This document shows positions 34,910-64,000 of a DNA stretch of 64,000 nt, piece by piece. Each line of letters begins with the position of its first letter. Within the stretch, counting starts at the first letter, position 1. The stretch spans positions 10,245-74,244 of the forward strand of contig JAHEKC010000001.1 of NCBI GenBank assembly GCA_024638565.1. The letters run 5' to 3'. A program made the position numbers and the translations under genes. Below the pieces are notes generated by a model, which ran no database searches, was not told the DNA's origin, and saw nothing but the letters and a program-made list of their open reading frames with translations. This DNA comes from Bacteroidota bacterium. Its GTDB lineage: Bacteria; Bacteroidota; Bacteroidia; AKYH767-A; OLB10.

Positions 34910-37900
34910 TTACTTCCGGATAACAATATACCCCGTCATCGGCTTGTTCCCATCGTCGAGATCCAGGACATAATAATAGGTGCCGCCAGTAAGCTGCTTA
35001 CCGGCATTGGATCCCACGTTGGATTCGCCGCGCCAGCGGTTGTCGTAACGAGCCGACTTGTACACCAGTGCCCCCCAGCGATTATATATCCAGATCTTGA
35101 GCCTGGGATAGTGTTCGATGCCCTCGATCACGAAAAAGTCATTGAATCCGTCGTTGTTGGGACTGAATCCCGAGGGAATATTTAGGTCGTCACAGAGCAC
35201 GGTAACCAGGACCTCACCCGTGGTGCGGCAGCCGTTTGCTGCCGTAATTTCCACCTGGTAGGCGGTGGTTTGTGCCGGATGCGCCACGGGGTTTGGTGAC
35301 AGGGGGTAGTCCAGCCCTTCTTCCGGCCACCACTGGTAGGTGATGCCACCGGAGGCTTCCAGCCTGGTGGTTTCACCGGGGCAGAGAATGACATTGGGGC
35401 TTACGGCATAGTCCTCAACGGTCATGACGGTTACCTCGATTTCATCCGAGGTGAAGTTCCCGCATACACTTTCTACGCTGACCCGGTAAGTTCCTTCCTG
35501 GGGCGCAAGGTATACCTTGTCCACGGAGCCGTTCAATAATTGTTCGTCGAAATGCCACTGGTACTTGCCATCCCATACGGAATCAGCCACCAGTTCAACA
35601 AGGTCGCCCAGGCAGACCTGTGTGGGTCCTGTCGCCCGGGCTGCGAAAGTGCTCGTATCATGAACGGTGAACCGGTGCATTGCCTTGCATTGATCCGCAT
35701 CAATGACGGTCAGCTCATACTCCCCCTCGAAAATGTTCGTCAGTTTTTTTGTATTGGCGCCGTTGCTCCACTGGTAATCAAACGGGGCCCGGCCACCTGT
35801 AATTTGCGTGGAGATGGTACCCCCATTGTTGAGCAGGCAATTGGCAGGCGCTGCAATTCCTGCCACCTGGATGCCGGATGCGGTCATCCTGACTTCGATA
35901 TTTTTTGTAGTCGCGCACCCTGCAGCATCCGTGGAAGTGATGGTATAGGTACCGGCCACAAGGCTGTCTACGTCCTGGGTCGTGGCCTGGTTGCTCCACA
36001 GGTAAGTGTATGGTGCCTCGCCGGCTTCCGGCGTGATGTTGATGGCGCCGTTGCCGCCGTCGCCGCAGTTCGTTTCATCGGTCACACTGACCCCTAGCCT
36101 GAATGGCATGGCCGGCTGGATGACGGAGATTGTAACGGAACCAGTGCACTGGCCGGCGTCAGTTACAGTGACGCGGTAAACACCGGCGATCAGGCCCCCG
36201 ATGTGCTGGGTGGTGGCGCCGTTGCTCCAGCTGTACTGGTATGGCAGCGTTCCATTGGATACTTCCAGGCCTATGGATCCGTTATTGCCGCCATAACAGC
36301 TTACATGGTTCTGGGTGGTGGCGGTCAGGCTGATCGGGGCCGTGGGCTGCTGTACGGTAATGCTTTCCGTAATGGCGCAGCCATTGGCATCGGTCACGGT
36401 CACGGTATAGGCTCCTGATTTGAGACCCTGCAGGTGAGGGGAAACCGAACCGCTGTTCCAGCTCCAGGCATATGGAGGGGTTCCCCCGTTTGCCGTCATC
36501 TGTACCGCCCCGTTGGTGCCGTCGTAGCAGGTCACATGCGTGAGGGCCGTAACGTGGGTCTCAAGCATGGCCACCGGCCCGGTTACCTGGTGGCTGACGG
36601 TGGAGGTGCAGCCTTGCTGGTCGGTAACGGTCAACAGGTAAGCTCCCGCAGGGATGCCCTGGATCACAGGTGCGGTGGATCCGTTGGACCATAGGTAGCT
36701 GTATGGAGTCGTACCCCCGGAGGTTTCCGTTTCTATAAAACCATCCTGCCCGCCATGGCATGCGATGGCACCGGACTTGCTCACGGTGGCAAGGAGGGCA
36801 TCAGGCTCGGTAATCGTGAAGGATGTCGAGGCGGTGCACCCGGCATCGTCGGTAACGATTACCGCATAGGTGCCCGCAGCCAGGCCGGCCGGTGCGCCCT
36901 GTGATGACTGGTTGTTGAGACTGTAAGCATACGGTGCCGTACCGCCGGAGGCATGCAGCAATGCGGAGCCGTCCTGTCCGCCCGCGCAGGAAATCTGCTG
37001 CAGGTGGGCCACGGAGGCATCCAGTGGCTGCAAAGGTTCCGTGACCTGGCCCGTGGCGCTGGCTGTGCAGCCGCTGGCATCGGTCAGCTGGACATTGTAT
37101 GTCCCCGCTGACAGATTTGATGCTGCAGAAGCTGTTGTGCCGTTACTCCAGGCCCATGCATAAGGGGCGATTCCACCATTGGCGGAAGCGGACAATTGAC
37201 CGTCGGCACCCCCGTGGCAGCTTACCGCCTTTGTCATGGATATGGACGTGACAAGCGCGGCAGGTGATCCAATCGTGGCATTCAGGACCAAAGAGTTTCC
37301 GCCGTGGTTTACATTTACCGTGTACGTGCCGGCGGCCAAGCCCGAAACACTGGCCGTGGTTTCACCGGTGCTCCAGAGGAACAAGCTGCCGCTTGCGGCA
37401 TTGACCACTTCGGCCGTTCCGTCCGCGGCGCCATGACAGGAAATGTCCTGCGCATGCACCCCCACGCTTTTTTGCCTGACATAGATCGCGTAGGCGTATA
37501 CCTGGACCCCGTTTACCGGGCAGGCATCATCACGGAGTGTTACATTGAATACATATGGTATATTTCGTACGTGTGAGGCGTCAGGGGTCCAGCAAAAATC
37601 AATTACAGGCCGGTGATTGCTGTTGGCGGTAAGTTGTGCCCCTGCAATGGGATTGATGAATTTGATATCAATGTTTTGCGCGGGATCGCCGTCCATTGTA
37701 TTGATCTGGAAGCACAGCTGTTCGCCGGGATGTGCCTCAGCGGTGAAATCGTTCGTGCCATTGATGCCGGTGGCCTTCGGCTGCATGTTGCTGCACGCGG
37801 AGGTGTATATCTGCATATCACGGATCACGCTGCCCGCCAGCTGGCCATTCCGGTATTCATTTACACGCAGGGTGAGGATTCCGATCTGTGTCTGCCCGGC

Positions 37901-38690: not shown

Positions 38691-41279
38691 TTATTTTCTA
38701 ATGACGATATAACCTGTCATTGGCTTTTTGTTATTGTTTAAATCAAGAATGTAATAGTAGGTCCCGGCAGGAACCATCTTGCCTGCCATCTCTCCACCAG
38801 TATTTGAGTAACCTGTCCAGTCATTGCGGTAATTCCTCGCCTTGTAAATGAGGCCGCCCCAGCGGTTGTAGATCCATATTTTATTATCCGGATATGCTTC
38901 GATGCCTTCGATTACAAATCCATCGTTTATGCCGTCCTGGTTGGGTGAATATCCGGAAGGCACCATGGGAGAATCGCACATGACTGAAACCGTAACCTCT
39001 CCTATGGCCTTGCAGCCATCGTCGTTTGTGACTTCCACCTTGTATACGGTGGTCTTTGGCGGTGAGGCGATGGGATCCGGCAGGGTGGCGTAATCCAGCC
39101 CGTCAGGTGGTTCCCACGCGTAATAAGTACCTCCACCCGCTTTTAGCTGAACCCGTTCCCCCGGACAAATGATCACATTGGGGCTTAACGTCATCCTTAC
39201 TTCTTCCTTTGAAGTGACATGCAGCGTATCTGAGTTGTATGTACCGCATCCGTGGCTTATAGTCACAGTATATGCACCGGCAACAGGTGTATAGAACTGC
39301 AGCCCGGTGGCACCACCGAGCGTCTGGCCGTTCAGGTACCATTGGTAAGATCCGCCGGCCACGGAGTCTGCGGTAAGGACTGCCAGTTCACCGATACACA
39401 GATCCGGGGAACCGGTGATGTTGGCGTTGAACAAGGAGGTGTCTGATACGGTGAAACTTTCAACAATCTCGCAACCTTTCTTGTCAGTCACCTTGACGGT
39501 ATATTGCCCGGCCGGCATGCCTGTGACTGTTTGTGTCGTGGCGCCCTGGTTCCACTGGAACGCATATGGTGAAGTGCCTCCCGAGGGCAAGGCGGTCACC
39601 TGGCCATAAGAGCCAGCCAGGCAATTGGCATGAACGGTAAGTTTATTGACCGTGAGATCGGAGTCAGGTTCGTGTATTGTCGTGGTGGCGCTGCCGGTAC
39701 AGCCATTCGCATCTGAAACAGTCACGGTATATGCTCCTGCTGGAATGTTTTTTATCTGCTTGGTGGCGGCACTGTTATCCCAAAAGTAGCTATAGGGTGG
39801 TGTGCCCCCGGCCGAAGAAGCAACGGCAATGCCGTCGGATCCGCCAAAGCAGGACACATGGGCTGTTGCATGGGCGTCAGGCGCAAGGGCTGGTGGTTCC
39901 GTGATCATTGCGTTGAACACGGTGGTGTCTGATTGATGCACCATAATCGCAGATTGCTGTCCCGCACCCAGGCCACTGATTGCTGCGGTGGTGGCACCAT
40001 TGCTCCAAAGGATGGAGGCGCCCGACGGTACATTGACGATAGTAGCAGATCCGTCCTGCGCCCCATGGCAGGTGATCCCTGTGACATTTATTGCGGCTGT
40101 TTTAGCGTTGACATATATTGTATACCCGAATACTAGCTCTGCATTGAACGGACAGGCGTTATCCCTGACGCTGATGGTAAAATTGTAAGGCGTTTCCCGG
40201 ACATGGGTGGCGTCGGGAGTCCAGGATACGGATACACCGGGCCTGCTGCCGCCGCCTATGCCAAACTGTGCGCCCGGTACCTGAGAGCCAATAGATGCGG
40301 AAAGGACCTGGAGTGAATCCGCATCATGTGTTTGTATGGAAGCTGATAAGGTATTGCCGGCAAGAACAACCTTGGTATAATTGTTTGTGCCGTCAAAGCC
40401 TCCGGCGATAGGCTGATGGTTGCTGCAGGGATCGGTGTACACCTGCATGTCACGCAGGACTGAACCTGCCAGTACCTGCCCGCGATACTCGGAAACCTTC
40501 AATGTGATTACCCCGATCTGTGCTTGGACGGGCGTAAACGAGAGTTGACCGGTTTGCGGGTCCAGGATGACCGGGCCGTTGGTAAGCATCGGGTTCTGCG
40601 CGGTGAGTAATGGCTGGTAGGTCGCGGTAGTGGATGCGCCTGTTCTGGGTGTAACCAACTCGAAATAAAGAGAGTCGCCGTCATCCTCCGTGACGGAGGG
40701 ATTGAAGCTGAATGGCTGGCCGGCGCAGATGATGACAATAGGATCGCGCGAGAACCGGGGAGAGTTGTTACCCGGTGCATCCAGGTTATTCAATTCAGCT
40801 TCCACAAAGAGGTTTGACCCCGCAGCGCATGGGTTTTTAAGCGTGGTGATTGCACAATTCCTGCAGCAGATCTGGTAACTGAACTTCCAGTCCGTACAGG
40901 CAGCCGGCAGGGCAATGGTCGCCTGGTAAAGGAACTTCTGGATACCGGTGAACGATCCGCCATTGCAGGTAGTGGCGGCGGTGACACAGGGCAGCGTGAT
41001 TTCCTGCCCGGTATTCTGGACCTGGATGGCCATAGCCGAAAGGCTGAAACCACAATTCACACTTTCGTATGTGAGAGGAATAGCAACCGGGGCGTTTATT
41101 CCGAGGCAATCCCTGTAAAAAGTTAATTCGACCAGGTAGTTGTTCCCTCCGAGGCTAGTGTAAGTAAGGTCAGCTCCAGCCGAGTGGGTTGCCGGACAGT
41201 ATTCCGGCCAGGCAAGCAACAAACCTGCCAGCAAGGCACAGGCAGGCCACCAGGATCTGCTATTCGGCATGTGATTCAT
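38691..41279 (-). CDS. Paralogous T9SS type-B CTD protein (862 aa) with the same Cys-rich N-terminal domain and ~4 SprB repeats
   Basis: The N-terminal domain is roughly 60% identical to that of the 34910-38650 protein (HSAGADLTYTSLGG...FYRDCLG...CCRNC). It has the same C-terminal sorting domain (...GTYYYILDLNNNKKPMTGYIVIRK). Confidence 0.8.
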   Translation of the reverse strand: MNHMPNSRSWWPACALLAGLLLAWPEYCPATHSAGADLTYTSLGGNNYLVELTFYRDCLGINAPVAIPLTYESVNCGFSLSAMAIQVQNTGQEITLPCVTAATTCNGGSFTGIQKFLYQATIALPAACTDWKFSYQICCRNCAITTLKNPCAAGSNLFVEAELNNLDAPGNNSPRFSRDPIVIICAGQPFSFNPSVTEDDGDSLYFELVTPRTGASTTATYQPLLTAQNPMLTNGPVILDPQTGQLSFTPVQAQIGVITLKVSEYRGQVLAGSVLRDMQVYTDPCSNHQPIAGGFDGTNNYTKVVLAGNTLSASIQTHDADSLQVLSASIGSQVPGAQFGIGGGSRPGVSVSWTPDATHVRETPYNFTISVRDNACPFNAELVFGYTIYVNAKTAAINVTGITCHGAQDGSATIVNVPSGASILWSNGATTAAISGLGAGQQSAIMVHQSDTTVFNAMITEPPALAPDAHATAHVSCFGGSDGIAVASSAGGTPPYSYFWDNSAATKQIKNIPAGAYTVTVSDANGCTGSATTTIHEPDSDLTVNKLTVHANCLAGSYGQVTALPSGGTSPYAFQWNQGATTQTVTGMPAGQYTVKVTDKKGCEIVESFTVSDTSLFNANITGSPDLCIGELAVLTADSVAGGSYQWYLNGQTLGGATGLQFYTPVAGAYTVTISHGCGTYNSDTLHVTSKEEVRMTLSPNVIICPGERVQLKAGGGTYYAWEPPDGLDYATLPDPIASPPKTTVYKVEVTNDDGCKAIGEVTVSVMCDSPMVPSGYSPNQDGINDGFVIEGIEAYPDNKIWIYNRWGGLIYKARNYRNDWTGYSNTGGEMAGKMVPAGTYYYILDLNNNKKPMTGYIVIRK

Positions 41280-41306
41280 ATACGTTGTTGCTGACCTCGT
41301 TATATT

Positions 41307-44300
41307 TTATTTCCTGAGTACGATATATCCGGTACGCGGCTTGGTGCCGTCACCCAGGTTCAATACGTAGAAATACGTTCCGGCAGGCACCCGTTTTCCG
41401 ATATAAATACCGGTTACATTCGATAACCCGTCCCAGTTGTTTTTATAGCTCCTGGCCTTGTAGACCAGGTTGCCCCACCTGTTGTAAATCCAGATCATGT
41501 TGCCCGGGTAATGTTCTATTCCCTTGATGACAAAGGCATCATTGATGCCATCATCATTTGGCGAGTATCCAGACGGAATGATGAGGGTGTCGCACATGAC
41601 GGTCACGATCACCTGACCGTTTGTTTTACAGCCATGTTCGCTTGTGATTTCCACGTTGTAAGAAGTCGTCAGGGTAGGCGACGCGATAGGATTGCTGACC
41701 GTGGTAAAATCGAGCCCCGTGGCCGGACTCCACAGGTAGCTTGCACCTCCGGAGGCGGACAGCTGTGTGCTTTCGCCCGGGCAGATGATGACGTTCGGGC
41801 TCAGGCTTACGTTGGTCATGGACTGCACATTGACTTCTATGGTATCTGAATGGAACTCGCCGCACGGGTGACTGATCGAAACGGAATAAAAGCCTGCGGC
41901 CGGCGTCACGAACACAGGGTATGTGGCGCCACCGAGTATTTGTCCGTTCAGGTACCATTGGTAGGTGGCGCCGTCAATTGAGTCTGCAAGCAGAGTCACC
42001 AGGTCGCCAACGCAGACAGTCGTCGGGCCATCTGCTTTAGCATGAAATTCTGAGATGTCCCCAACCGTTACCTGGTATTCCGAGGTGCATCCATTGTCGT
42101 CAGTGACGGTAACCGTATATGTGCCCTGTGGAAGATTCGTGATTTGCTGAATGGTGCCGCCCTGGCTCCACTGGTACTGGTAGGGCGCGGTTCCACCTGA
42201 AGGGTTGGCCGTTGCCGAACCACCTGTATTCATCAGGCAGTTGGAAGGTGTGGTCGTGCCGGTAACCATTACGGATGCCGGGGGCTGAATGATGGAAGCC
42301 GTGGTAACGACCGTGCAGCCGTTGGCGTCTGTCACCGTGACGGTATAGCTTCCTGCAGGCAGCCCCGAAACATCCTCCGTGGAGGCCCCATGGCTCCATG
42401 TATAGGTATAGGGCGGGGTGCCCTGCGTTACAGTGAGGTCGATGCTGCCGTCGCTTCCATTGTGGCAGCTTACCTGCTGTGTCACCGTGGCACCCACGGA
42501 CAGCGCTCCCGCTGGCTGGGTCACCTCAACAGAATCGGTCAGCGTACATCCGTTCGCATCAGTAATTGTTACGGCATAGGTGCCGGCTGGCAGGGAAGAA
42601 ATGTCCTTTGTGGTATCCCCGCTGCTCCACTGGTAACTGTAAGGGGCCGTGCCCATGCTGGTATTCACAGTTATGGCGCCATTGGCACCTCCATAACAGC
42701 TGACCGGCTGGCTCATGGTGAGCGTTGCGTTGAGGGCCCCTGCCGGCTGGGTGATGGTAACACTGTGTGTATCCGTACAGCCGTTGGAATCTGTGATGAT
42801 AACGGTGTAGGTACCGGCCTGGAGATTCATGATGTCTTCCGTAGTCATGCCGTTTGACCATGAGTAGCTATAGGGTGGGGTTCCCATCTGGACCGTGAGG
42901 TCTATTTGGCCGTCAGATCCTGCATGACAGCTGACCTGCTGCAAAACGTTTGATGAAATCGACAGGGCGCCATTCGGCTGAGTGATTGCAACCGTTTGTA
43001 CGCCGCTACATCCGTTAGCATCTGTTACAGTCACCGTATAGGTGCCGGCAGTGAGGCTGTCGATATCTTCCGTGATTGCACCCGTGCTCCAGTTGAAATT
43101 GTAAGGAGGTGTGCCTTGTGTTACGGTAAGGTTCAAAGCACCATTATTACCATTATAACAACTTACCTGCTGAAGTACGGTGATGCCAGTGGAAAGCGCA
43201 CCTGCTGGCTGGGAAATGGATATTGCCAGCGTATCAACGCATCCATTGGCGTCGGTAACCGTTACTGAGTAATTGCCTGATGGCAGGTTACTTATATCTT
43301 CCGTGGTATCACCGGTATTCCAGGCATAGCTATATGGCGGCGTGCCCATGACCACCGTCAGGTCAATGTTGCCTGTACTGTCTGCAAAACAACCTACATT
43401 TTGGGACGAGGAGACCGTGGCATTCAGCGCACCGGCAGGCTGGGAAATCAAAGTCATAAGCGTATCGGTGCAACCATTCGTATCCGTCACGATTACGGAG
43501 TAGTTGCCCGATGCAAGGCCGGAAATGTTTTGCGTGGTCTGACCGCCACTCCAGTTGAACGAATAGGGTGGCGTACCCATGGACACGGTCAGATCAATGG
43601 AGCCATCCGAACCAGCATAACAATTTACATTTTGTGAAGCGGCAAGGGTGGCAGAAAGTGCGCCTGCGGGTTGTGAGACCACGACTGTTTGCATGGACAG
43701 GCACCCGTTGGCATCATTAACAGTTACTGTATAGGTCCCGGACGGAAGGTTGTTAATATCCTCTGTTGTAGCGCCATTGCTCCACAGGAAAGTATAAGGT
43801 GGGGTGCCACTGCTGGCTGTGAGGTTGACAGATCCGTTCGATCCTCCATGGCAGGATACATTCTGTGATATGGAAACACTCGTGGTGAGTGATCCGGGTG
43901 GCTGCGTGATGGTTGCCGAAGTCACATAAGTACAGCCATTCGCATCTGTCACGGTAACCGTGTATGTGCCTGCTGCAAGTCCAGAAAGGTCTTCACTTGG
44001 GGACCCGGTATTCCAGAGATAGGCGTATGGTGGCGTGCCACCGTTGACAGTCAGGTCAATGGAGCCGTTGTTTCCGGAGAAGCATGAAATATTGGAAGTG
44101 ACTGACGCTGTACCACTAAGAGGATTTAGCGGCTGGTTCAGCGTTAAAGTTTGCTGGCTGGTGCAGCCATTGGCATCGGTAATATTTACCGTGTAGGTAC
44201 CCGCCGTGAGTCCGGATAAATCCTTAGTTGTCGCACCGTTGCTCCAGCTGTATGAATAAGGGGTAGTGCCACCTGATACCGTTAGGCCGATGGAACCGTC

Positions 44301-55090: not shown

Positions 55091-55115
55091 TTTAAACGAA
55101 ATTGCCTTGATTAGG

Positions 55116-57320
55116 TTACTTGTTGGAAGAAAGATCTTTGGCGACCCTGATCACCCTGATTTCAGTCCTCCGGTTCTTTTGATGGTCTTCTTCTGAACAG
55201 ATTGATCCATCCGCACACTTGTTCATCAGCATCGTTTCGCCTCCCCATTCCATTTTTTCGACGACAGACCTTGAAGTGCCGTTATTGACAAGCCACTGGG
55301 TAGCGGCCTCGGCCCTGTGCCTGGAGAGTCTTTCGTTGTATGCATTTGTCCCCCTGGAATCACAATAGGAGTTCATCAGCAGGCGCACCTCGGGGTTTGC
55401 TTTTACGAACTGCAACACCTCCATCATTGTTTTGACAGCGTCTGGCCGGATATTGGATCTGTCGAAGTCATAGTAGATGATCTTGTACCAGCGGGCGAAT
55501 TTGCCCACGTCAGCACCTTTCTTCAGGTCTACGACAACCTCGAAGTCCTTGTCAATCTTCTGCCCCACGTTGGACAGTGTGACCACCTTGGGATCGTAGC
55601 CGCTTTTCATGATGATCAGCGCAATCTGCAGGTCGCGCTCAAGGGGTTGCATGTATACGCCTTTCTTGTCCGTCTTGCCCAGGGTCTTGTTCGTCTGATC
55701 AATGCCGATAACGGCATTGTGCAGCATCTTTTTCGTTTCCCTGTCGCGTACTTTCACGATCAGGTTATAAACCCGCTCCTGCTTCTTGATTTCCAGCTTG
55801 ACGAAGAAATCCTCGGACGGGAAGTAGTCTATGGTTTTGAAGTGTTCAAAGTCCCGTGAATAGGATTCCTTGGTGCCTTCGACAGTATATTCCTCGTCAT
55901 AGTCTATAGGAAACTCGAACATGGCATCTTCACCGGCAGTCATCTCCAGGACATCGTTGCTGCTGTTCCGAAGCTTTACATGTGCCATGGGGATGGGCTT
56001 GTCCGTTCCTTCCTCGACCACGATACCGCGCACCTTGAGCATGCGGCGGAAGCTGTATATATCATCATCAACCCCTTTAGACTCTCGGTTTGAGCTGAAA
56101 TAGCCGTAATGCGTCTTGGTATTGAATATGATGCCGAAGTCGTCCTCACTGGAGTTCACCGGCGCGCCCATGTTTTTCGCATCCATCCAGGTCGTGTCCT
56201 TCTGGTGCGTGTAAAAGACATCCAGTCCGCCCAGGACATCACGGCCGTTGGAAGCAAAGAGGAACGTGCCGTCAGCATGCTGGTATGGGAACAGCTCGTC
56301 ACCCTCCGTATTGATCGCTTCACCCATGTTGACAGGTGCATTCCATTCTGCGTTAGCGCTGTCACGGTCGCAGTAGTAAAGGTCCATGCCACCCTGGCCG
56401 CCCGGCATATCGGAGGTGAAATAAAGCCGGAGGTTGTCAGGCGAAACAAAGGCGTGTGCACAATTGAATTCGTCGTTGTTATACTTGAAGGGCGTGAGGT
56501 CCTTCCAGTTTCCATCCTTCATGCGGGCATGGAAGATCTTGAGCTTAACGACTGCGTCTTCACTGGTGAAGACCTTTTTCTTGACCACGTTATTTCGTGT
56601 GATATATACTTCCCCGCCATCCTGGCTGAACGCCACCGGGCCATCATTGTATTTGATCTGTACATTGTCCGAGAACGGTTCCACCTCCAGGAAGGTATTC
56701 CCTTTTCCTTTTGAGTAATACAGGTTCAGGTAGTTTTCATTGGTCCAGGAATGTTTTTTCTCAATCAGGTCTTTCGAGGGCCGTGCGGAGGAGAAAACCA
56801 TTCCCTCGTCGAAAAATGCCGGGGCAAAGTCCGCATTCGGGGAATTGATGATCAGCTTCCAGACGAAATAATTTGCCGTGTCCTTGAAGTAGGAAGGGAT
56901 ATTCTCGATCGTCTTAAGCGCGAACATCCCGCGCCTGTCGTCAGGGTTCAACTCGGCATAATCCCGGATCCAGGCTTTGGCGTCGTTGTATTTTCCGTTC
57001 TTCATCAGGGCCTGCCCGTAGTAATACTTATGGATGGGCTCATGGTCCTTGGTCTTGACCACTTCGCCATACCAGAATTCGGCCTTTTCACTGCGACCGG
57101 TCTTGCGGTAGCAATGAGCCAGCTTGACCATGGCGGCGGTGAAATCGGGATGCTTTTCCAGGATCTTCTCGTATGCCATGATGGCCTCGCTGTATGCGAG
57201 CTGGTCATACAATTCATCCGCTTTTTCCAGTTGCTTGCTCTGCCCGAATCCGTAATGCGCCACCAGTGAAAATATGGCTGTGAGCAGAATCAGGTGTGCG
57301 ATCGTCTTTTTCATGAGCAT
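55116..57320 (-). CDS. OmpA-family protein (N-terminal TPR, central beta-propeller-like repeats, C-terminal OmpA/MotB peptidoglycan-binding domain)
   Basis: The signal peptide is followed by TPR helices. Repeated Tol-type (PD40-like) motifs follow (FSPDNLRLYFTSD, FASNGRD). The C-terminal OmpA domain contains YCDSRGTNAYNERLSRHRAEA. The gene sits immediately downstream of the PorP/SprF gene. Confidence 0.8.
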   Translation of the reverse strand: MLMKKTIAHLILLTAIFSLVAHYGFGQSKQLEKADELYDQLAYSEAIMAYEKILEKHPDFTAAMVKLAHCYRKTGRSEKAEFWYGEVVKTKDHEPIHKYYYGQALMKNGKYNDAKAWIRDYAELNPDDRRGMFALKTIENIPSYFKDTANYFVWKLIINSPNADFAPAFFDEGMVFSSARPSKDLIEKKHSWTNENYLNLYYSKGKGNTFLEVEPFSDNVQIKYNDGPVAFSQDGGEVYITRNNVVKKKVFTSEDAVVKLKIFHARMKDGNWKDLTPFKYNNDEFNCAHAFVSPDNLRLYFTSDMPGGQGGMDLYYCDRDSANAEWNAPVNMGEAINTEGDELFPYQHADGTFLFASNGRDVLGGLDVFYTHQKDTTWMDAKNMGAPVNSSEDDFGIIFNTKTHYGYFSSNRESKGVDDDIYSFRRMLKVRGIVVEEGTDKPIPMAHVKLRNSSNDVLEMTAGEDAMFEFPIDYDEEYTVEGTKESYSRDFEHFKTIDYFPSEDFFVKLEIKKQERVYNLIVKVRDRETKKMLHNAVIGIDQTNKTLGKTDKKGVYMQPLERDLQIALIIMKSGYDPKVVTLSNVGQKIDKDFEVVVDLKKGADVGKFARWYKIIYYDFDRSNIRPDAVKTMMEVLQFVKANPEVRLLMNSYCDSRGTNAYNERLSRHRAEAATQWLVNNGTSRSVVEKMEWGGETMLMNKCADGSICSEEDHQKNRRTEIRVIRVAKDLSSNK

Positions 57321-57343: not shown

Positions 57344-58300
57344 TTAGAAGTAACGCGGCGTAACCACCTTGTCCTTCTCGAATGAGAAGTCGTACCCGAT
57401 GGTGAATTCATGCGTGCCACTGTTGTAATTATTAAGCTTGGTAAGCGTGTAGTCGTAAGAATATCCGAAGCGAAGCTGCTTGGTAAGCTGGTACTGGGTA
57501 AGTACCGACACGGCATCACCGGTCCTGTATGCCATGCCAAACCAGAATACCTCCTTGAACAGGGCATTAAGCGTGATATCGGCTTCCAGCGGTGCGCCGG
57601 ATACGGCAGCAACCATGAGGGAAGGCTTCATCTTCACACTTTCGTTGATGTCGAAAACGTAGGCCGAGAACAGGTAATAGTGCCAGTTCTGAAGGTTGAC
57701 CTTGTTCGCTGTCGCTTTCTGGGTCACCGGGTCTATCTTGTTTTCGAGAAACCGCGGGATAGACAAGCCGGCATAGAAACGGTCCGTATGGAAATAGGTG
57801 CCGAATCCGAAGTTGGGCATAAGCTTGTTCTGGATGTTCCTTGAGAATTCAGGATCGTTGGGATCGATGGTGATCACATCGAGCAGCTTTTCCTCCACGT
57901 TGATAATGCCACCCTGCAGTCCCATGGACAGGATGCCCTGGTCGCTGACCTGCATGTGATGGGCGTAGCTGACGAATGCCGCCGTCTGGTTGGTGACCCC
58001 TATCCTGTCGTTCAGGATGCTGATGCCCACCCCGTTCGTTTCACGGGAAAAGGGCATGTGGAAGTTGACAGTGGCGGTTTTCGGCGCTCCCTCGATGCCT
58101 ACCCACTGGTCCCTGTAAAGCAGGGAAGCGGCCGCGAAGCCCCTTGAACCTGCATAGGCCGGGTTGATGAACATCTCGTTGTTCATGTACTGTGTGAAAT
58201 GGGGCTCGTACTGGGCCTCTGCCCTTTCCGATGCCATCACACTCATGGCCAGCGCCGCTACAGCTATGATTCCTTTCCTGAAATGCTGTTTCATATACAT
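57344..58300 (-). CDS. PorP/SprF family type IX secretion system membrane protein
   Basis: The 318-aa product has a signal peptide and a beta-barrel with a C-terminal F. The motifs FNPAYAG, DQW and GAPxTxxxN are characteristic of PorP/SprF. The gene sits directly downstream of a type-B CTD gene, as sprF does relative to sprB. Confidence 0.8.
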   Translation of the reverse strand: MYMKQHFRKGIIAVAALAMSVMASERAEAQYEPHFTQYMNNEMFINPAYAGSRGFAAASLLYRDQWVGIEGAPKTATVNFHMPFSRETNGVGISILNDRIGVTNQTAAFVSYAHHMQVSDQGILSMGLQGGIINVEEKLLDVITIDPNDPEFSRNIQNKLMPNFGFGTYFHTDRFYAGLSIPRFLENKIDPVTQKATANKVNLQNWHYYLFSAYVFDINESVKMKPSLMVAAVSGAPLEADITLNALFKEVFWFGMAYRTGDAVSVLTQYQLTKQLRFGYSYDYTLTKLNNYNSGTHEFTIGYDFSFEKDKVVTPRYF

Positions 58301-58374: not shown

Positions 58375-61300
58375 TCAATACCTCAATACGATATATCCCT
58401 GTAAAGGTTTTGTATTGTTGTTGAGGTCAAGCACATAGAAATAGGTGCCTGCCGGGACGCGTTTCCCGATATAGATGCCTGATACATTGCTGATTCCGTC
58501 CCAGTTACTCTTGTAGTCATTCGACTTGTATATCAGGTTGCCCCACCGGTTGTAAATCCAGATCCGGTTGCCGGGATAGTGATCGATTCCCTTGATCACG
58601 AAGGCATCGTTTATGCCGTCGTCGTTTGGTGAGTATCCCGAGGGGATGATCAGTGTGTCGCATTCTACCGTTACCATGACCTGTGCTGTTGCCGTGCATC
58701 CTTCGAAATTGGTAACCTGTACCATGTACGTGGTTGTTTGCAGCGGGCTGGCAACAGGATTGGGCACGTCATCGTAATCCAGGCTGGTCGCCGGTGTCCA
58801 GATATAACTGATACCTCCGCTGGCAAACAGCTGCGTGCTTTCTCCTGCACAAATGGTCACATCCGGATCAATCTGCACCGACGGACCAGGATTTACCGTG
58901 ATCTCGATCGGCTGCGAATCGAAGGTGCCACAGGGTCCGGTGATGGTGACCGTGTATATACCCGCCGTGGGGGTAGTGAGCACTGGGCTGTTTTCACCTG
59001 CAAGTGCCGTGCCATCCAGGTACCACTGGTAGGTTACATTGTCAATTGAGTCGGCAATGAGGGTGGTCACATCACCGGCGCAGAGCACGCCTGGTCCGTC
59101 TGCATTGGCATTGAATACCGAAAGGTCGTTGACCGTATAGGTGCCCGTGGTTTCACATCCGTTGACATCCGTGATCTTCACGGTGTAGGTGCCCTGTGGC
59201 AGGCCTGTGAGATTTTGCGTGGTATCGCCATTGCTCCAACTGTATGCATATGGGCTTGTACCTCCAGCCGGGTTGATCGAAACCGAACCAGTGATGCCAT
59301 ACAGGCAATTGGACGAGGTCGTACTGCCAGTCACGGCAAGGGAAGCGGAAGGCTGTGTGATCGTTACGGTTGCCGTGGTGGTACAACCGTTGGCATCCGT
59401 GATGGTTACCGTATAGGTGCCTGCCGGAAGGTTGGAAATATCTTCCGTGATTTCCCCGGTACTCCATACATAGGTATAGGGCGCGGTGCCGTCCTGGACC
59501 GTCAGGTCTATAGAGCCGTCGCTGCCTGCATGGCAGTTTACCTGCTGGGATACGGTGGCGTTCGCATTGAGCGCCGCCGCGGGCTGGGTAACCGTTGCCG
59601 TGGCGGTGACCGTACATCCGTTGGCATCGGTGATGGTGACCGTATAGGTTCCTGCTGTGAGGTTCGAGATGTCCTCGATGGTGTCACCGTTGCTCCACAC
59701 GTAAGCATATGGTGGTGTGCCATCACCCACGGTAAGGTCAATAGAGCCGTCATTTCCTGCATGGCAGTTCACCTGCTGGGTGACGGCAGTGCTGGCATTG
59801 AGTGCAGCGGCAGGCTGCGTGACGCTTGCCGTCGCGGTGACCGTACAGCCATTTGCATCGGTAATGGTGACCGTGTAGGTGCCGGCTGAGAGATTTGAAA
59901 TGTCTTCCAGCGTATCGCCATTGCTCCATACGTAGGTATACGGCGGCGTGCCGTCACCCACTGTAAGGTCTACCGAACCGTCATTCCCGGCATGGCAGTT
60001 CACCTGCTGGGTGACAGCGGCACTGGCATTCAGTGCCGCGGCGGGCTGGGTAACTGACGCGGATGCGGTGACCGTACATCCGTTGGCGTCAGTGATGGTA
60101 ACTGAATAAGTTCCGGCTGCCAGGTTGGCGATATCCTCAATCGTTGCACCATTGCTCCATACATAAGCATAAGGCGGCGTGCCGTCACCTACGGTCAGAT
60201 CGATGGATCCGTCATTGCCCGCATGGCAGTTCACCTGCTGGGTGACAGCAGCACTGGCAATGAGCGATGCGGCCGGCTGGGTCACGGATGCAGATGCAGT
60301 GATCGTACAGCCATTGGCATCAGTGATGATCACTGAATAAGTTCCGGCTGCCAGGTTGGCGATATCCTCGATCGTGTCACCATTGCTCCATACATAAGCA
60401 TAAGGAGGCGTGCCGTCACCCACGGTCAGGTCAATAGAGCCGTCAACCCCGGCATGGCAGTTCACCTGCTGGGTGACAGCAGCACTGGCACTGAGCGATG
60501 CGGCCGGCTGGGTCACGGATGCAGATGCAGTGACCGTACAGCCATTGGCGTCAGTAATGGTGACCGAATAAATCCCGGCCGCCAGGTTGGCAATGTCCTC
60601 GATCGTGTCGCCATTGCTCCACGCGTAGGTGTAGGGCGGTGTACCGTCGCCCACGGTCAGGTCAATGGAGCCGTCAACCCCGGCATGGCAGTTCACCTGC
60701 TGGGTGACAGCGGCACTGGCATTCAGTGCCGCAGCGGGCTGGGTAATCGTTACCGTGGCCATCGAATTACATCCGTTCACGTCCAGGATTGTGACCGTGT
60801 AGGTGCCGGCGGAAAGGCCGCTGATGTCCTCGGTCGTGTCGCCGTTGCTCCAGGTATAGGTGTAGGGCAGCGTACCGCCGTTGACAGTCAGGTTGGCGGC
60901 CCCGTTAGCGCCGCTGTGACAGCTCACCTGCTGTGTGGCGGAGACACTAGAGGCGAGTGCACCGGCCGGCTGCTGGATGGTGGCAGTGACACTGCTGGTG
61001 CAGCCGTTGATATCGGTGATCGTAACGGTATAGGTGCCGGCCGAAATCCCTGAAAGATCTTCCAGTGTGGAACCCGTGCTCCACAGGAAGGAATAGGGCT
61101 GCGTGCCGCCCGATGCGGTCAGGTCGATCGCACCGTTATTTCCGCTGAAGCATGAGATATTGGCGGTTACCGTGGCGCTGCTTGTGAGCGGTGCGACCGG
61201 CTGTCCGATCGATGCAATTTGCGTGAACGTACACCCGTTGGCGTCTGTGATCGTAACCGTGTAGGCTCCTGCCGCAAGGTTTGAAATGTCCTCGGTTGTT

Positions 61301-64000
61301 ACGCCATTGCTCCATGCAAAAGTATAAGGGATAGTACCCCCGGCAACGGTCAGGTCAATAAACCCGTTGGCGCCACCGTGACAGAATACATCCTGTGAGC
61401 TGGCAACGCCGGCGTTGAGTGCAGCGGCAGGCTGGCTTACCGTGCCGGTCTCCACGATCGTGCAGCCGTTGGCATCGGTTACGGTAACCGTATAGGTGCC
61501 GGATGTAAGTCCGGTGATATCCTGGGCCGTAGCGCCTGTACTCCAGTTATAGGTATACGGGGGTGTGCCGTTGGTGACCGTCAGGTCAATAGAGCCGTCG
61601 CTACCCGCATGGCAGTTTACATTTTGGGATGTGGCGGCAAATGCATTCAACTCGGCGGCAGGCTGTGTCACGGTAGCCGTGGCTGTGGTCACACAGCCAT
61701 TGGCATCCGTAACGGTAACCGTATAGGTGCCTGCGGCCAGGTTGCCAATATCTTCCGTGTTCGCGCCGGTGCTCCACGCGAATGTATAGGGGGCTGTGCC
61801 GTCGCCAACCGTCAGGTCGATCGATCCGTCATTACCCGCATGGCAGTTCACCTGCTGGGATACGGAAGCACTTGCGCTCAGTGCAGCGGCAGGCTGGGTG
61901 ACCGATGCGGTTTGCTCTGCCGTACAGCCGTTGGCGTCTGTGACCGTTACCGTGTAGGATCCGGCGGCAAGTCCACTGATGTCTTCTGTGTTGGCGCCTG
62001 TATTCCAGCTGAAGGTGTACGGTGCCGTGCCGTCACTGACCGTAAGATCGATGGATCCGTTGTTGCCTGCATGACAGCTTACCTGCTGTGAAACGGACAG
62101 GCCGGCATTCAATGCAGCAGCAGGCTGGGTTACCGTGGCCGCCGCGGTAGTAACACAACCGTTGGCGTCGGTAACGGTAACGGTGTAGGTGCCGGATGCC
62201 AGGCCTGTGATGTTCTGTGAGGTCTGCCCGTTGCTCCAGCTGAATGCGTAAGGCGGTGTGCCGTCCACAACCTGCAGGTCGATGTGACCGTCACTGCCTG
62301 CATGGCAACTCACATTTTGTGATGCGGTAGCACCCGCGTTGAGGGCGCCTGCAGGCTGCGTGATGGTAACGGAGGCAGTGGCATTGCAGCCGTTTACATC
62401 CACAATGGTAACCGTATAGGTGCCTGCTGCAAGCCCGCTTACATCTTCCGTGTTGGCACCGTTGCTCCAGGTGTAGGAATAGGGTTGGGTTCCGCCGGTA
62501 ACGGTCAGGTTCGCCGAGCCGTTTGCGCCACTGTAGCAGCTCACCTGCTGGGTGGCGGAAAGGCTCGTGGCCAGTGCACCCGCAGGTTGCTGGATGGTTT
62601 CGGTTGAGCTGCTGGTGCAGCCGTTGGCGTCTGTAACTGTTACGGTATAAGTGCCTGCCGAAACACCGGACAGGTCCTCCTGGGTGCTGCCGGTGCTCCA
62701 GAGATAGGTATAGGGTTGTGTGCCGCCTGACGCAGTCAGGTCAATGGCCCCGTTGTTCCCGCTGAAACAGGAAATATTGGACGTCACCGAGGTGCTCGTG
62801 GAAAGGGAGGCAACCGGTTCCGTGATACTTGCAATTTGTGAGAAGGTACAGCCATTCGCGTCCGTGATCGTAACGGCATAGTTGCCGGCGGACAGGCCGG
62901 AAACGTCCTCCGAAGTTTCGCCGTTGCTCCATGCGTAAATGTATGGATAGGTGCCGCCCGTAACGGTCAGGTCAATGAATCCGTTGGCGCCGCCATGGCA
63001 GAAGACGTTCTGCGATGAGGAAACAGATGCCTGCAATGCTGCTGCCGGCTGGCTTACCGATCCGGTTGCGATGGTGCTGCAGCCGTTGGCATCCGTAATC
63101 GTCACAGTATAGGTACCGGTGGCCAGCCCGGAAAGATCTTCTGTATTGGCACCGGTACTCCAGTTGAAAGTGTAGGGGGCCGTACCCTGTGCAACGGTCA
63201 GGTCAATAGATCCGTTTGCACCGCCATGGCAGCTCACCTGCTGCGTGGTGGTGGCGGAGGCGCTGAGGGCACCTGCCGGCTGGGTGATCGTGGCCGAAGC
63301 AGTGGTCGTGCAACCGTTGGCATCGGTGACCAGTACCGTGTACGTGCCTGCAGCAAGATTGGACAGGTCCTTTGTAGAAATCCCGTTGCTCCAGCTGAAA
63401 TTATACGGGGCGGTACCCTGTGTAACCTCAAGGTCGATGGCACCATCAGCGCCGCTGTGACAGCTTACGTTCTGGGTGGTATTGATGCTGGCTGTCAGCG
63501 CGCCTGCCGGCTGTGTGACCGTAGCTGAAGCGATTGCCGTACAGCCGTTTGCATCAGTTACAGTCACGCTGTAACTGCCGGCCGAGAGGCTGTTGAGGTC
63601 TTCTGATGAAGCGCCGTTGCTCCAGCTGTACGAATATGGTGGGGTACCCTGGGTGACACCCAGGTCGATGGAACCATCCACGCCGCCGAAGCAGCTGACG
63701 GCCTGGCTTACGCCTATAGTAACGGATAATGCCCCGGCGGGCTGACTTACCGACTGGCTGGCAGAATAGGTACAGCCGTTGGCATCGGTGATCAGCACTG
63801 TGTAGACACCGGTTGACAGCCCGGATATATCCTCGCTGTTGTCATTGTTGCTCCACTGGAATGAATAGGGCGCGGTGCCGCCGCTGACAGTAAGGTCTAT
63901 GGCGCCGTCGTCACCACCGAAACAGGATACTTGCTGCGAAGCAGTAGTGGAGGCGGACAACGCTGCTGACGGCTGGCTGACGGAAGCCTGCGCGGAAGCT
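58375..64000 (-). CDS. Giant SprB-repeat cell-surface protein with type-B T9SS CTD (C-terminal >1870 aa; N-terminus beyond the window end)
   Basis: The ORF is continuous to the window edge. It holds at least 22 SprB repeats, many near-identical at DNA level, then Ig-like modules. The C-terminus is IPSGYSPNDDGINDAFVIKGIDHYPGN...GYIVLRY. Confidence 0.85.
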   Translation of the reverse strand, partial: ASAQASVSQPSAALSASTTASQQVSCFGGDDGAIDLTVSGGTAPYSFQWSNNDNSEDISGLSTGVYTVLITDANGCTYSASQSVSQPAGALSVTIGVSQAVSCFGGVDGSIDLGVTQGTPPYSYSWSNGASSEDLNSLSAGSYSVTVTDANGCTAIASATVTQPAGALTASINTTQNVSCHSGADGAIDLEVTQGTAPYNFSWSNGISTKDLSNLAAGTYTVLVTDANGCTTTASATITQPAGALSASATTTQQVSCHGGANGSIDLTVAQGTAPYTFNWSTGANTEDLSGLATGTYTVTITDANGCSTIATGSVSQPAAALQASVSSSQNVFCHGGANGFIDLTVTGGTYPYIYAWSNGETSEDVSGLSAGNYAVTITDANGCTFSQIASITEPVASLSTSTSVTSNISCFSGNNGAIDLTASGGTQPYTYLWSTGSTQEDLSGVSAGTYTVTVTDANGCTSSSTETIQQPAGALATSLSATQQVSCYSGANGSANLTVTGGTQPYSYTWSNGANTEDVSGLAAGTYTVTIVDVNGCNATASVTITQPAGALNAGATASQNVSCHAGSDGHIDLQVVDGTPPYAFSWSNGQTSQNITGLASGTYTVTVTDANGCVTTAAATVTQPAAALNAGLSVSQQVSCHAGNNGSIDLTVSDGTAPYTFSWNTGANTEDISGLAAGSYTVTVTDANGCTAEQTASVTQPAAALSASASVSQQVNCHAGNDGSIDLTVGDGTAPYTFAWSTGANTEDIGNLAAGTYTVTVTDANGCVTTATATVTQPAAELNAFAATSQNVNCHAGSDGSIDLTVTNGTPPYTYNWSTGATAQDITGLTSGTYTVTVTDANGCTIVETGTVSQPAAALNAGVASSQDVFCHGGANGFIDLTVAGGTIPYTFAWSNGVTTEDISNLAAGAYTVTITDANGCTFTQIASIGQPVAPLTSSATVTANISCFSGNNGAIDLTASGGTQPYSFLWSTGSTLEDLSGISAGTYTVTITDINGCTSSVTATIQQPAGALASSVSATQQVSCHSGANGAANLTVNGGTLPYTYTWSNGDTTEDISGLSAGTYTVTILDVNGCNSMATVTITQPAAALNASAAVTQQVNCHAGVDGSIDLTVGDGTPPYTYAWSNGDTIEDIANLAAGIYSVTITDANGCTVTASASVTQPAASLSASAAVTQQVNCHAGVDGSIDLTVGDGTPPYAYVWSNGDTIEDIANLAAGTYSVIITDANGCTITASASVTQPAASLIASAAVTQQVNCHAGNDGSIDLTVGDGTPPYAYVWSNGATIEDIANLAAGTYSVTITDANGCTVTASASVTQPAAALNASAAVTQQVNCHAGNDGSVDLTVGDGTPPYTYVWSNGDTLEDISNLSAGTYTVTITDANGCTVTATASVTQPAAALNASTAVTQQVNCHAGNDGSIDLTVGDGTPPYAYVWSNGDTIEDISNLTAGTYTVTITDANGCTVTATATVTQPAAALNANATVSQQVNCHAGSDGSIDLTVQDGTAPYTYVWSTGEITEDISNLPAGTYTVTITDANGCTTTATVTITQPSASLAVTGSTTSSNCLYGITGSVSINPAGGTSPYAYSWSNGDTTQNLTGLPQGTYTVKITDVNGCETTGTYTVNDLSVFNANADGPGVLCAGDVTTLIADSIDNVTYQWYLDGTALAGENSPVLTTPTAGIYTVTITGPCGTFDSQPIEITVNPGPSVQIDPDVTICAGESTQLFASGGISYIWTPATSLDYDDVPNPVASPLQTTTYMVQVTNFEGCTATAQVMVTVECDTLIIPSGYSPNDDGINDAFVIKGIDHYPGNRIWIYNRWGNLIYKSNDYKSNWDGISNVSGIYIGKRVPAGTYFYVLDLNNNTKPLQGYIVLRY
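59529..60915 (-). repeat. Intragenic tandem array of six 231-bp (77-codon) near-identical repeat units
   Basis: The string CATGGCAGTTCACCTGCTGGGTGAC recurs at 59529, 59760, 59991, 60222, 60453 and 60684, exactly in phase. Unit-to-unit identity is about 88-95%. Confidence 0.8.

What the first reader, a model, noticed from the sequence alone, without database searches (positions are those of the whole stretch)
34910..64000. Roughly 29-kb minus-strand array of five tandem giant SprB-repeat / type-B T9SS-CTD adhesin genes served by a single PorP/SprF-OmpA pair
Seen in sequence: five consecutive same-strand genes (>1870, 2150, 2373, 862 and 1246 aa), separated by only 5-30 nt except around the sprF/ompA pair. 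Each ends in the same ~90-aa sorting domain (IPSGYSPNxDGxNDxFxIxGIExYP...IYNRWGxLxYK...GTYYYVLDL...GYIVLRK). Each is built from SprB-type repeats plus Ig-like modules.

Established knowledge: type-B CTD proteins such as SprB in Flavobacterium johnsoniae are T9SS cargo that travel along the cell surface, and each normally pairs with a dedicated downstream SprF/PorP-like protein. Here only the first gene in transcriptional order has a cognate SprF-like gene plus an OmpA-family partner. The four downstream type-B CTD genes have none.

Inference: either one SprF services several adhesins, or the downstream genes are alternative or exchangeable adhesin cassettes. Neither arrangement has been worked out experimentally. 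The locus is also the best candidate for lineage-specific surface or motility variation.
Basis: partly seen in the sequence, partly recalled or inferred. Interest (0 to 1): 0.6.

Follow-up and report, generated by a model that had tools for sequence, protein, structure and literature searches.

The report
Five-adhesin T9SS locus, one carrier-anchor pair

Summary
Five intact minus-strand genes all end in a type-B T9SS sorting domain above curated cut-offs and carry 77-aa SprB-repeat modules. The 64-kb window holds one PorP/SprF-family gene and one PorE-like TPR/OmpA gene.

The interpretation needs four corrections.
- **Two transcription units.** A hairpin plus U-run terminator follows the PorE-like gene.
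- **Sharing has precedent.** One carrier serving several type-B cargoes was shown in F. johnsoniae in 2025, for CTDs 44-68% identical. Here the CTDs are 61-82% identical.
- **Adhesins flank the pair in relatives too.** They lie upstream, downstream or on both sides. Downstream ones carry the same head as G4/G5, so G2-G5 are probably clients, not orphans.
- **Static, not gliding.** The carrier has no cysteine, so it lacks the Cys-X-Cys tail that links SprF to the gliding track. It is also paired with a peptidoglycan-binding protein.

Cassette exchange is unsupported: there are no inverted repeats, no recombinase, and paralogous DNA is only 60-77% identical.

G2 has odd codon composition (GC3 0.46 against about 0.70), which hints at foreign origin.

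I file this as a new member of a known kind, of modest interest. The genome beyond position 64000 could not be retrieved.

The parts
58375..64000 (-). G1: giant type-B CTD adhesin, 5' end beyond the window. It has at least 22 SprB-type 77-aa modules, then an Ig_7 domain, then the CTD (CTD coding about 58375-58647).
   Evidence: PF13573 scores 700 bits with 21 stretches. PF13585 scores 91 bits at residues 1784-1872. TIGR04131 scores 55.7 bits.
57344..58300 (-). PorP/SprF-family outer-membrane carrier (318 aa). It has a signal peptide, no cysteine, and ends ...VVTPRYF.
   Evidence: PF11751 at 2.8e-83 covering 273/273 profile positions, and TIGR03519 at 271 bits (cut-off 90.55); it is the only copy in 64 kb; no Cys and no C-terminal tail.
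55116..57320 (-). PorE-like periplasmic anchor (734 aa). Domains are TPR (about 30-135), PD40 beta-propeller, two CarboxypepD_reg-like domains, and an OmpA_C peptidoglycan-binding domain (616-702).
   Evidence: NF052230 PorE scores 320 bits and NF053607 CHU_0125_OmpA scores 369 bits. Both are below the equivalog cut-offs of 600 and 620; the best solved relative is 6top, an OmpA-family C-terminal domain.
55051..55093 (-). Intrinsic terminator after the PorE-like gene: AAAGCGGGCU, a 9-nt loop, AGUCCGCUUU, then a U-rich run.
   Evidence: MFE -13.9 kcal/mol, z -2.4. The consensus scan missed it because the loop exceeds 8 nt. An equivalent hairpin follows the PorE-like gene in L033 and L001.
54795..55050 (-). 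Spacer upstream of G2. It presumably holds the promoter of the G2-G5 unit, but no promoter was identified.
   Evidence: There is no TAnnTTTG motif here. The sigma-70-type scan is at chance level.
48453..54905 (-). G2: type-B CTD adhesin, 2150 aa from the ATG (probable start GTG at 54794). It has a signal peptide and a beta-sandwich plus PKD head (53745-54794). After the head come 21 SprB modules, Ig_7 and the CTD (48453-48725). GC3 is 0.46.
41307..48428 (-). G3: type-B CTD adhesin, 2373 aa. Its head (47313-48428) is of the same family as the G2 head. It has 23 SprB modules and a CTD (41307-41579) that is 82% identical to the G1 CTD.
38691..41279 (-). G4: type-B CTD adhesin, 862 aa. Its 'ATHSAGADLTY' head (40077-41279) is built of Ig/cadherin-like beta-sandwiches. 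It has 3 SprB modules and a CTD (38691-38963).
34910..38686 (-). G5: type-B CTD adhesin, 1258 or 1246 aa. Its head (37445-38686) is of the same family as the G4 head. It has 8 SprB modules and a CTD (34910-35182). It is convergent with frr (34099-34668, + strand).

Best explanation
This is a type IX secretion adhesin locus made of two transcription units.

**Unit 1** encodes a giant SprB-repeat adhesin (G1), a PorP/SprF-family outer-membrane carrier and a PorE-like peptidoglycan-binding protein. This is the known type-B cargo / carrier / anchor triad.

**Unit 2** starts after an intrinsic terminator. It encodes four more adhesins (G2-G5) whose sorting domains belong to the same CTD subfamily as that of G1.

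**Proposed mechanism (inferred).**
- Each adhesin crosses the inner membrane by Sec and passes the SprA translocon.
- Its uncleaved type-B CTD is collected by the single locus-encoded carrier and stays bound to it.
- The carrier is tied to the cell wall through the PorE-like protein.
- The five proteins are therefore displayed as static fibres with different tips: the G2/G3 head, the G4/G5 head, and the unseen G1 head. They do not ride the gliding track.

**Origin.** The locus is an expanded version of a conserved ancestral arrangement: G1-type adhesin, carrier, anchor, then an 'ATH-head' adhesin.

**Shown versus inferred.**
- Shown: gene content, domain membership, the terminator, CTD relatedness, absence of the Cys-X-Cys tail, and synteny in relatives.
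- Inferred: that one carrier serves all five, that display is static, and that the proteins act as adhesins.
For: - **Domain membership of all seven genes** is established.
- **Only one carrier gene** lies in the 64 kb. The other 35 kb is housekeeping: frr, pyrH, tsf, rpsB, rpoN, an aminoacyl-tRNA synthetase, LolB1 and others.
- **CTD relatedness.** The last 100 aa are 61-82% identical pairwise. With the CTDs of the two closest GTDB loci they form a clade with 100/100 bootstrap support.
- **Co-variation.** Across 17 adhesin/carrier pairs, CTD identity tracks carrier identity (r = 0.88). The window's carrier is likewise closest to those same loci.
- **Experimental precedent (PMC12618676).** One shuttle serves three cargoes whose CTDs are more than 44% identical. 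A non-cognate shuttle serves a CTD that is 68% identical. Triads with a PorE homologue give static localisation.
- **Synteny in the 66-74% carrier relatives.**
  - L031/L032 and L035 have carrier, anchor and then an adhesin 22-42 nt downstream, with no upstream adhesin.
  - L033 has an adhesin on both sides, with a terminator and a 225-nt spacer as in the window.
  - The downstream adhesins carry the G4/G5-type head (48-55% identity).
- **Two clients for one pair.** L001 has two tandem adhesins with 97%-identical CTDs ahead of one carrier/anchor pair.
- **Static class.** The carrier has zero cysteines and no tail beyond the barrel-ending PRYF. SprF Cys324 and Cys326 are required for track coupling (PMC12635249). 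The partner has a PorE-like architecture with an OmpA_C domain.
- **Adhesin-like heads.** Both heads fold confidently into beta-sandwich, Ig, cadherin or PKD-like domains, at pLDDT 90 and 84.
Against: - The rest of the genome is unseen, so an orphan SprF-like shuttle elsewhere (as Fjoh_1677 in F. johnsoniae) could serve G2-G5.
- G4 and G5 CTDs are only 61-64% identical to the G1 CTD. Among cognate pairs from different genomes, that level goes with carriers only 52-85% identical, so recognition is not guaranteed.
- The r = 0.88 partly reflects shared phylogeny.
- Type-B cargo stays bound to its carrier, so five cargo genes per carrier gene raises a stoichiometry problem.
- The static-versus-mobile call rests on the absence of a motif and on analogy. 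No localisation data exist for this carrier subfamily.
- The PorE-like protein scores below the PorE equivalog cut-off and has no lipobox cysteine.
- No promoter was found for unit 2.
Confidence: 0.6

Rival explanations
1. G2-G5 are true orphans. They are exported by one or more other SprF-like shuttles encoded elsewhere in the genome, and the local carrier/anchor pair is dedicated to G1.
For: - In F. johnsoniae the three orphan type-B cargoes use an unlinked orphan shuttle (PMC12618676).
- A terminator separates the two units.
- G4-head homologues in other genomes (L027, L028) sit with no SprF-like gene within 10 kb.
- G2-G5 all end in ...RK, whereas G1 and all nine upstream-type relatives end in ...Y.
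Against: - In L031/L032 and L035 the only adhesin adjacent to this carrier subfamily is a downstream G4/G5-type adhesin, 22-42 nt after the anchor gene.
- L033 repeats the window's layout.
- All five CTDs fall in the CTD subfamily that accompanies this carrier subfamily.
- Their identities (61-82%) lie in or above the range where sharing was demonstrated.
Confidence: 0.25
2. The five proteins are SprB-like mobile gliding adhesins. The array provides alternative motility adhesins for different surfaces.
For: - SprB repeats and type-B CTDs are shared with SprB.
- F. johnsoniae directs several type-B cargoes to the gliding machinery (PMC12618676).
Against: - The carrier lacks the Cys-X-Cys C-tail needed for the disulfide link to GldK, and has no cysteine at all (PMC12635249).
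- It is operonic with a PorE-like peptidoglycan binder. [quoted passage not shown]
- No gld or spr motility genes lie in the window.
Confidence: 0.1
3. The downstream genes are silent or exchangeable cassettes that recombine with the expressed gene, giving antigenic or phase variation.
For: - Tandem paralogues share 231-nt repeat units and similar 3' ends.
- The G1 and G3 CTDs are 82% identical and the last alignment window is 78% identical, which could reflect some past gene conversion.
Against: - No inverted repeats were found in 34-64 kb.
- Repeat units are only 60-77% identical at the DNA level, and CTD-coding DNA is 62-76% identical.
- There is no recombinase, invertase or transposase in the window.
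- Every gene is a complete ORF. G2-G5 each have their own start and signal peptide; the G1 start lies outside the window.
- Heads are of different families.
Confidence: 0.04

Closest known systems
F. johnsoniae Fjoh_3952 / Fjoh_3951 / Fjoh_3950 operon: type-B CTD cargo, SprF-like shuttle, PorE homologue. It is one of five such operons (PMC12618676; Kulkarni 2019 as cited there).
   Same: - The gene order cargo, PorP/SprF-family carrier, PorE-like OmpA protein matches G1, carrier, anchor.
- The CTD is of type B.
- Static surface anchoring is proposed.
- The shuttle can also serve a second cargo whose CTD is 68% identical.
   Different: - Here four further type-B cargo genes follow the triad in a second unit.
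- Relatives place cargo on either side of the pair.
- The cargoes are SprB-repeat giants.
- Nothing here has been tested experimentally.
P. gingivalis PG1035-PorP-PorE complex (PMC9143113)
   Same: A type-B CTD protein is bound to a PorP-family barrel, which in turn binds a TPR / beta-propeller / CarboxypepD_reg / OmpA_C peptidoglycan-binding protein.
   Different: - P. gingivalis has one cargo and one PorP, which is also part of the core T9SS.
- The window's OmpA protein scores 320 bits against a 600-bit cut-off for the PorE equivalog.
- It lacks a lipoprotein cysteine.
F. johnsoniae SprB/SprF gliding adhesin pair
   Same: SprB repeats (PF13573), a type-B CTD and a PorP/SprF-family partner gene.
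   Different: - SprF has a periplasmic Cys-X-Cys tail that is disulfide-bonded to GldK, and has no PorE-like neighbour.
- The window's carrier has no cysteine and does have a PorE-like neighbour (PMC12635249, PMC9143113).
[quoted passage not shown]
   Same: One SprF-like protein handles several type-B cargoes with related CTDs.
   Different: There the shuttle and its cargoes are dispersed in the genome and the cargoes go to the gliding machinery. Here the presumed clients are clustered around the carrier.

Membership tests
T9SS type-B CTD cargo (TIGR04131 / PF13585) | Match to the type-B sorting-domain models above the curated cut-off | tested here: met
   All five score 50-56 bits on TIGR04131 (cut-off 35). 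They score 89-96 bits on PF13585 (cut-off 27).
T9SS type-B CTD cargo (TIGR04131 / PF13585) | The domain lies at the extreme C-terminus | tested here: met
   Matches end 0-2 residues before the stop codon, for example G3 at 2283-2371 of 2373.
T9SS type-B CTD cargo (TIGR04131 / PF13585) | N-terminal Sec signal peptide | tested here: inconclusive
   By inspection only. G2-G5 have a basic n-region, a hydrophobic core and an A/G-Q or A-T site. No predictor was available, and the G1 N-terminus lies outside the window.
T9SS type-B CTD cargo (TIGR04131 / PF13585) | T9SS-dependent secretion that needs a PorP/SprF-family protein | not testable with these tools
   This needs genetics or secretion assays.
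T9SS type-A CTD cargo (TIGR04183 / PF18962) | A discrete C-terminal type-A domain | tested here: not met
   Whole-protein scores exceed the cut-off, but there are zero individually significant stretches. The best stretches are internal, inside the repeats. This is an additive artefact of Ig-like repeats.
PorP/SprF family (PF11751 / TIGR03519) | Full-length match above the cut-off | tested here: met
   PF11751 scores 280 bits over profile positions 2-273 of 273. TIGR03519 scores 271 bits (cut-off 90.55).
SprF proper (gliding-adhesin carrier) | Periplasmic C-terminal tail with a Cys-X-Cys motif that bonds GldK (PMC12635249) | tested here: not met
   There is no cysteine anywhere in the 318 aa, and the protein ends ...VVTPRYF. 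Of 17 related carriers, 16 also lack the motif.
PorE (NF052230) | Score above the equivalog cut-off | tested here: not met
   320 bits against a cut-off of 600. The CHU_0125 OmpA family scores 369 bits against 620.
PorE-like architecture | TPR, beta-propeller, CarboxypepD_reg and OmpA_C domains in that order | tested here: met
   TPR at 31-135, PD40 at 291-315, CarboxypepD_reg at 430-487 and 523-590, and OmpA at 616-702. The best PDB match is 6top, an OmpA-family C-terminal domain.
PorE-like architecture | Lipoprotein signal with a lipobox cysteine | tested here: not met
   The first cysteine is at residue 70. The N-terminus is MLMKKTIAHLILLTAIFSLVAHYGFGQ.
SprB-repeat proteins (PF13573) | Multiple SprB repeats | tested here: met
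   Pfam finds 21, 20, 23, 2 and 7 stretches. The 77-aa (231-nt) modules number 22, 21, 23, 3 and 8.
Invertible or cassette-type variation locus | Inverted repeats, a site-specific recombinase, or near-identical donor and acceptor segments | tested here: not met
   There are no inverted repeats, and DNA identity between copies is 60-77%. No recombinase lies in the window.

The most novel reading that the evidence does not exclude
A single static carrier/anchor pair is the shared, possibly limiting, docking platform for five co-located giant adhesins of at least two head classes. Surface composition would then be set by competition for the carrier and by separate transcription of the two units. 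Adhesin genes could be gained, including horizontally (G2 has GC3 0.46 against a host value of about 0.70), as long as their CTD fits the resident carrier. The five natural CTD variants (61-82% identical) would then form a ready-made series for mapping what determines type-B CTD/carrier specificity, which PMC12618676 leaves open.
Probability: 0.4. Interest if true: 0.45.

Novelty: new member of a known kind. Interest (0 to 1): 0.3.

Why it matters
If one carrier really serves all five adhesins, the locus is a natural experiment on type-B CTD/carrier recognition. How a PorP/SprF-family shuttle tells CTDs apart is still unsolved. The locus also shows that in an uncultured Bacteroidia clade the carrier/anchor pair, not the adhesin, is the stable core. 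Around that core, adhesin genes are added on either side. Beyond that it is a standard T9SS surface-protein locus, useful mainly for correct annotation. These proteins should not be called gliding adhesins merely because they contain SprB repeats.

Tried and rejected
- **Recovering the source contig to see beyond position 64000.**
  - An exact-protein look-up failed.
  - An exact 60-mer scan of the metagenome contigs found nothing.
  - A 100%-identical SprF (P0041) exists on a 93,633-nt NCBI contig, but it was not retrievable.
  - The best relative among the GTDB representative genomes is only 65% identical.
- **Promoter search upstream of G2.** No Bacteroidetes -7 motif TAnnTTTG lies in the spacer, and window-wide counts are below chance. 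Sigma-70-like hits are at chance level.
- **Identifying the heads by sequence.** There were no Pfam hits beyond a PKD_6 segment in G3, and no PDB sequence hits.
- **Resolving the duplication history from a tree of the last 240 aa.** Inner nodes are poorly supported. With more taxa, monophyly of G1-G5 was recovered in 0 of 200 replicates. The first bootstrap call used a rooting-sensitive routine and was discarded.
- **Rfam and tRNA scans of the window.** Both found nothing.
- **Type-A CTD hits.** Rejected as additive repeat artefacts.
- **Context of a G2-head homologue (L038).** Uninformative.
Full report
**Observation**

- On the minus strand lie G1 (58375 to beyond 64000, at least 1874 aa), a 318-aa gene (57344-58300) and a 734-aa gene (55116-57320).
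- They are followed by G2 (48453-54905), G3 (41307-48428), G4 (38691-41279) and G5 (34910-38686).
- Gaps are 74, 23, 210, 24, 27 and 4 nt.

Family searches confirm the domain assignments.
- All five large proteins match PF13585 (89-96 bits) and TIGR04131 (50-56 bits, cut-off 35) at their very C-termini.
- They contain SprB repeats in 21, 20, 23, 2 and 7 stretches.
- The 318-aa protein is a full-length PorP/SprF family member (PF11751 at 280 bits, TIGR03519 at 271 bits).
- The 734-aa protein has TPR, PD40, CarboxypepD_reg and OmpA domains. It scores 320 bits on the PorE model and 369 bits on the CHU_0125 OmpA model, both below the equivalog cut-offs.
- The apparent type-A tail hits have no individually significant stretch and lie inside the repeats, so I treat them as additive artefacts.

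tblastn finds exactly one SprF-like gene and five CTDs in the 64 kb. The other 35 kb is housekeeping and holds no T9SS, gliding or recombinase genes. It includes frr, a Ser/Thr kinase, pyrH, tsf, rpsB, an ABC-F ATPase, recX, an aminoacyl-tRNA synthetase, rpoN, tonB, LolB1 and a 2-oxoacid:ferredoxin oxidoreductase.

**Anatomy**

- The repeat unit is 231 nt (77 aa) with two cysteines per unit. G1, G2, G3, G4 and G5 carry 22 or more, 21, 23, 3 and 8 units.
- All five share an Ig_7-like region plus the CTD over roughly the last 240 residues.
- The heads fall into two families.
  - G2 and G3 share a domain of about 250 aa plus a PKD-like domain.
  - G4 and G5 share a head of about 375 aa that begins ATHSAGADLTY directly after the signal peptide.
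- Neither head has a Pfam or PDB sequence match.
- AlphaFold models built on small alignments are confident: pLDDT 90 for G4 and 84 for G2. They are all-beta stacks of Ig, cadherin or PKD-like sandwiches. This fits adhesin tips but gives no ligand.
- G2 probably starts at the GTG at 54794, where its signal peptide and its homology to G3 begin.

**Transcription units**

A 10-bp hairpin with a U-run lies at 55051-55093, directly after the PorE-like stop codon (dG -13.9 kcal/mol, z -2.4). It is followed by 210-321 nt of spacer. G1, carrier and anchor therefore form one unit. G2-G5, separated by gaps of 4-27 nt, form a second. No promoter could be recognised.

**Does one carrier serve all five?**

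- The last 100 residues of the five CTDs are 61-82% identical.
- In F. johnsoniae most type-B CTDs are 20-30% identical to each other (PMC12618676).
  - Three orphan cargoes whose CTDs are more than 44% identical share the shuttle Fjoh_1677.
  - The Fjoh_3952 CTD is also secreted with the shuttle of Fjoh_1645, whose CTD is 68% identical.
- Across 17 adhesin/carrier pairs from related loci, CTD identity tracks carrier identity (r = 0.88). This is partly phylogenetic.
- The window's five CTDs group with those of the loci whose carriers are closest to the window's carrier (100/100 bootstrap for the subfamily).

The strongest evidence is synteny among carrier relatives that are 66-74% identical.

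| Locus | Carrier identity | Arrangement |
|---|---|---|
| L029/L030 | 74% | adhesin, carrier, anchor |
| L034 | 72% | adhesin, carrier, anchor |
| L037 | 67% | adhesin, carrier, anchor |
| L036 | 67% | adhesin, three intervening genes, carrier, anchor |
| L031/L032 | 66% | carrier, anchor, then an adhesin 42 nt downstream; nothing upstream except the dcw-ftsZ-yqeY cluster |
| L035 | 70% | as L031/L032, with a 22-nt gap |
| L033 | 66% | adhesin on both sides, with a terminator hairpin and a 225-nt spacer as in the window |
| L001 | 65% | two tandem adhesins with 97%-identical CTDs, then one carrier/anchor pair |

- The downstream adhesins of L031, L033 and L035 carry the G4/G5-type head (48-55% identity).
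- The upstream adhesins have G1-type CTDs (72-83% identity).
- The ancestral locus therefore appears to be a G1-type adhesin, carrier, anchor and then an ATH-head adhesin.
- The window is an expanded version. G2 and G3 lie between the anchor gene and the ATH-head genes, and there are two ATH-head genes rather than one.
- No relative examined has more than two adhesins.

**Static or mobile?**

- F. johnsoniae SprF couples SprB to the gliding track through a disulfide from Cys326 to GldK. [quoted passage not shown]
- The window's carrier has no cysteine and ends at the barrel terminus ...PRYF. Of 17 relatives, 16 are the same.
- It is operonic with a PorE-like protein carrying an OmpA_C domain. 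The best solved match is 6top, which I recall as the PorE C-terminal domain but did not verify.
- PMC9143113 and PMC12618676 associate such triads with wall-anchored, non-mobile cargo.
- I therefore favour static adhesin fibres over gliding adhesins. This is inference by analogy.

**Cassette exchange**

There are no inverted repeats. Paralogous DNA is 60-77% identical. No recombinase is present. Every gene is a complete ORF, and G2-G5 each have their own start and signal peptide. I reject this reading.

**Caveats**

- The genome outside the window is unknown. The 100%-identical carrier record P0041, on a 93.6-kb NCBI contig, could not be fetched.
- An unlinked shuttle, or another SprF-like gene upstream of G1, therefore cannot be excluded.
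- G4 and G5 CTDs are 61-64% identical to the G1 CTD. Recognition at that level is plausible but unproven.

**Comparison and verdict**

- The locus is a member of the known class of type-B cargo plus PorP/SprF carrier plus PorE-like anchor. The closest known example is Fjoh_3952-3951-3950.
- It is not an SprB/SprF gliding pair.
- What is new is the degree of expansion and the bilateral arrangement around one pair in an uncultured Bacteroidia lineage.
- Interest is modest. The most useful aspect is a natural series of five CTD variants for studying carrier specificity.

Noticed in passing
window 48453-54905 (G2), also 41307-48428 (G3) and 38691-41279 (G4): Third-position GC is 0.46 in G2, uniform along the gene. 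It is 0.55 in G3 and 0.59 in G4. Eleven housekeeping genes give 0.65-0.72, the carrier 0.72, the anchor 0.68, G1 0.645 and G5 0.67. This suggests that G2, and perhaps G3, came from a lower-GC donor.
   Followed up: partly
window 53745-54794 and 47313-48428 (G2/G3 heads): The head domain (NLxQxRNG...WVNGN...SNAHYxEGMS) is rare. Only 10 relatives turned up among 5.8 billion proteins. All are short proteins (184-558 aa), some with a type-A CTD. One (P0036) has an LPxTG-like C-terminal anchor. No other fusion of this head to SprB repeats and a type-B CTD was seen.
   Followed up: partly
window 40077-41279 and 37445-38686 (G4/G5 heads); L031, L033, L035, L027, L028: The 'ATHxAGADLTY' head family has about 30 relatives. 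It has invariant Cys, Trp and Arg positions and is joined to either type-A or type-B CTDs. In L027 and L028 such genes have no SprF-like neighbour within 10 kb.
   Followed up: partly
last residue of each adhesin: window G1-G5; L001, L029, L033, L034, L036, L037: All nine adhesins encoded upstream of the carrier gene end in Y (...LRY...LKY or ...MRY). All five encoded downstream (G2-G5 and the L033 downstream adhesin) end in K (...RK or ...KK). The meaning is unknown.
   Followed up: no
L027:10001-13978: The G4-like adhesin of MAG GCA_016722525.1 is called as three consecutive or overlapping genes: head plus SprB, SprB, and CHU_C. This looks like a frameshifted or mis-assembled single gene.
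   Followed up: no
L031, L032, L035, L027: In several relatives the carrier/adhesin locus sits directly after the dcw cluster (murD, ftsW, murG, ftsA, ftsZ, yqeY). In the window the array instead abuts frr.
   Followed up: no
window 20545-24006 (-): This 1153-aa ORF has host-like GC3 (0.70) but no Pfam or NCBIfam match. Neighbouring ORFs at 19083-20018 (+) and 14560-15306 (-) also lack significant family matches.
   Followed up: partly
window 57344-58300: A protein 100% identical to the carrier (P0041) is recorded on an NCBI contig of 93,633 nt. Relatives at 89% and 81% identity exist only on JGI contigs of 2 kb or less. The source contig could not be read with the tools.
   Followed up: yes
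L004:1-20387: Two complete triads lie in tandem. Their CTDs are 53% identical and their carriers 60% identical. The second carrier has a CxC near its C-terminus. This shows that more diverged CTDs keep their own carrier.
   Followed up: partly
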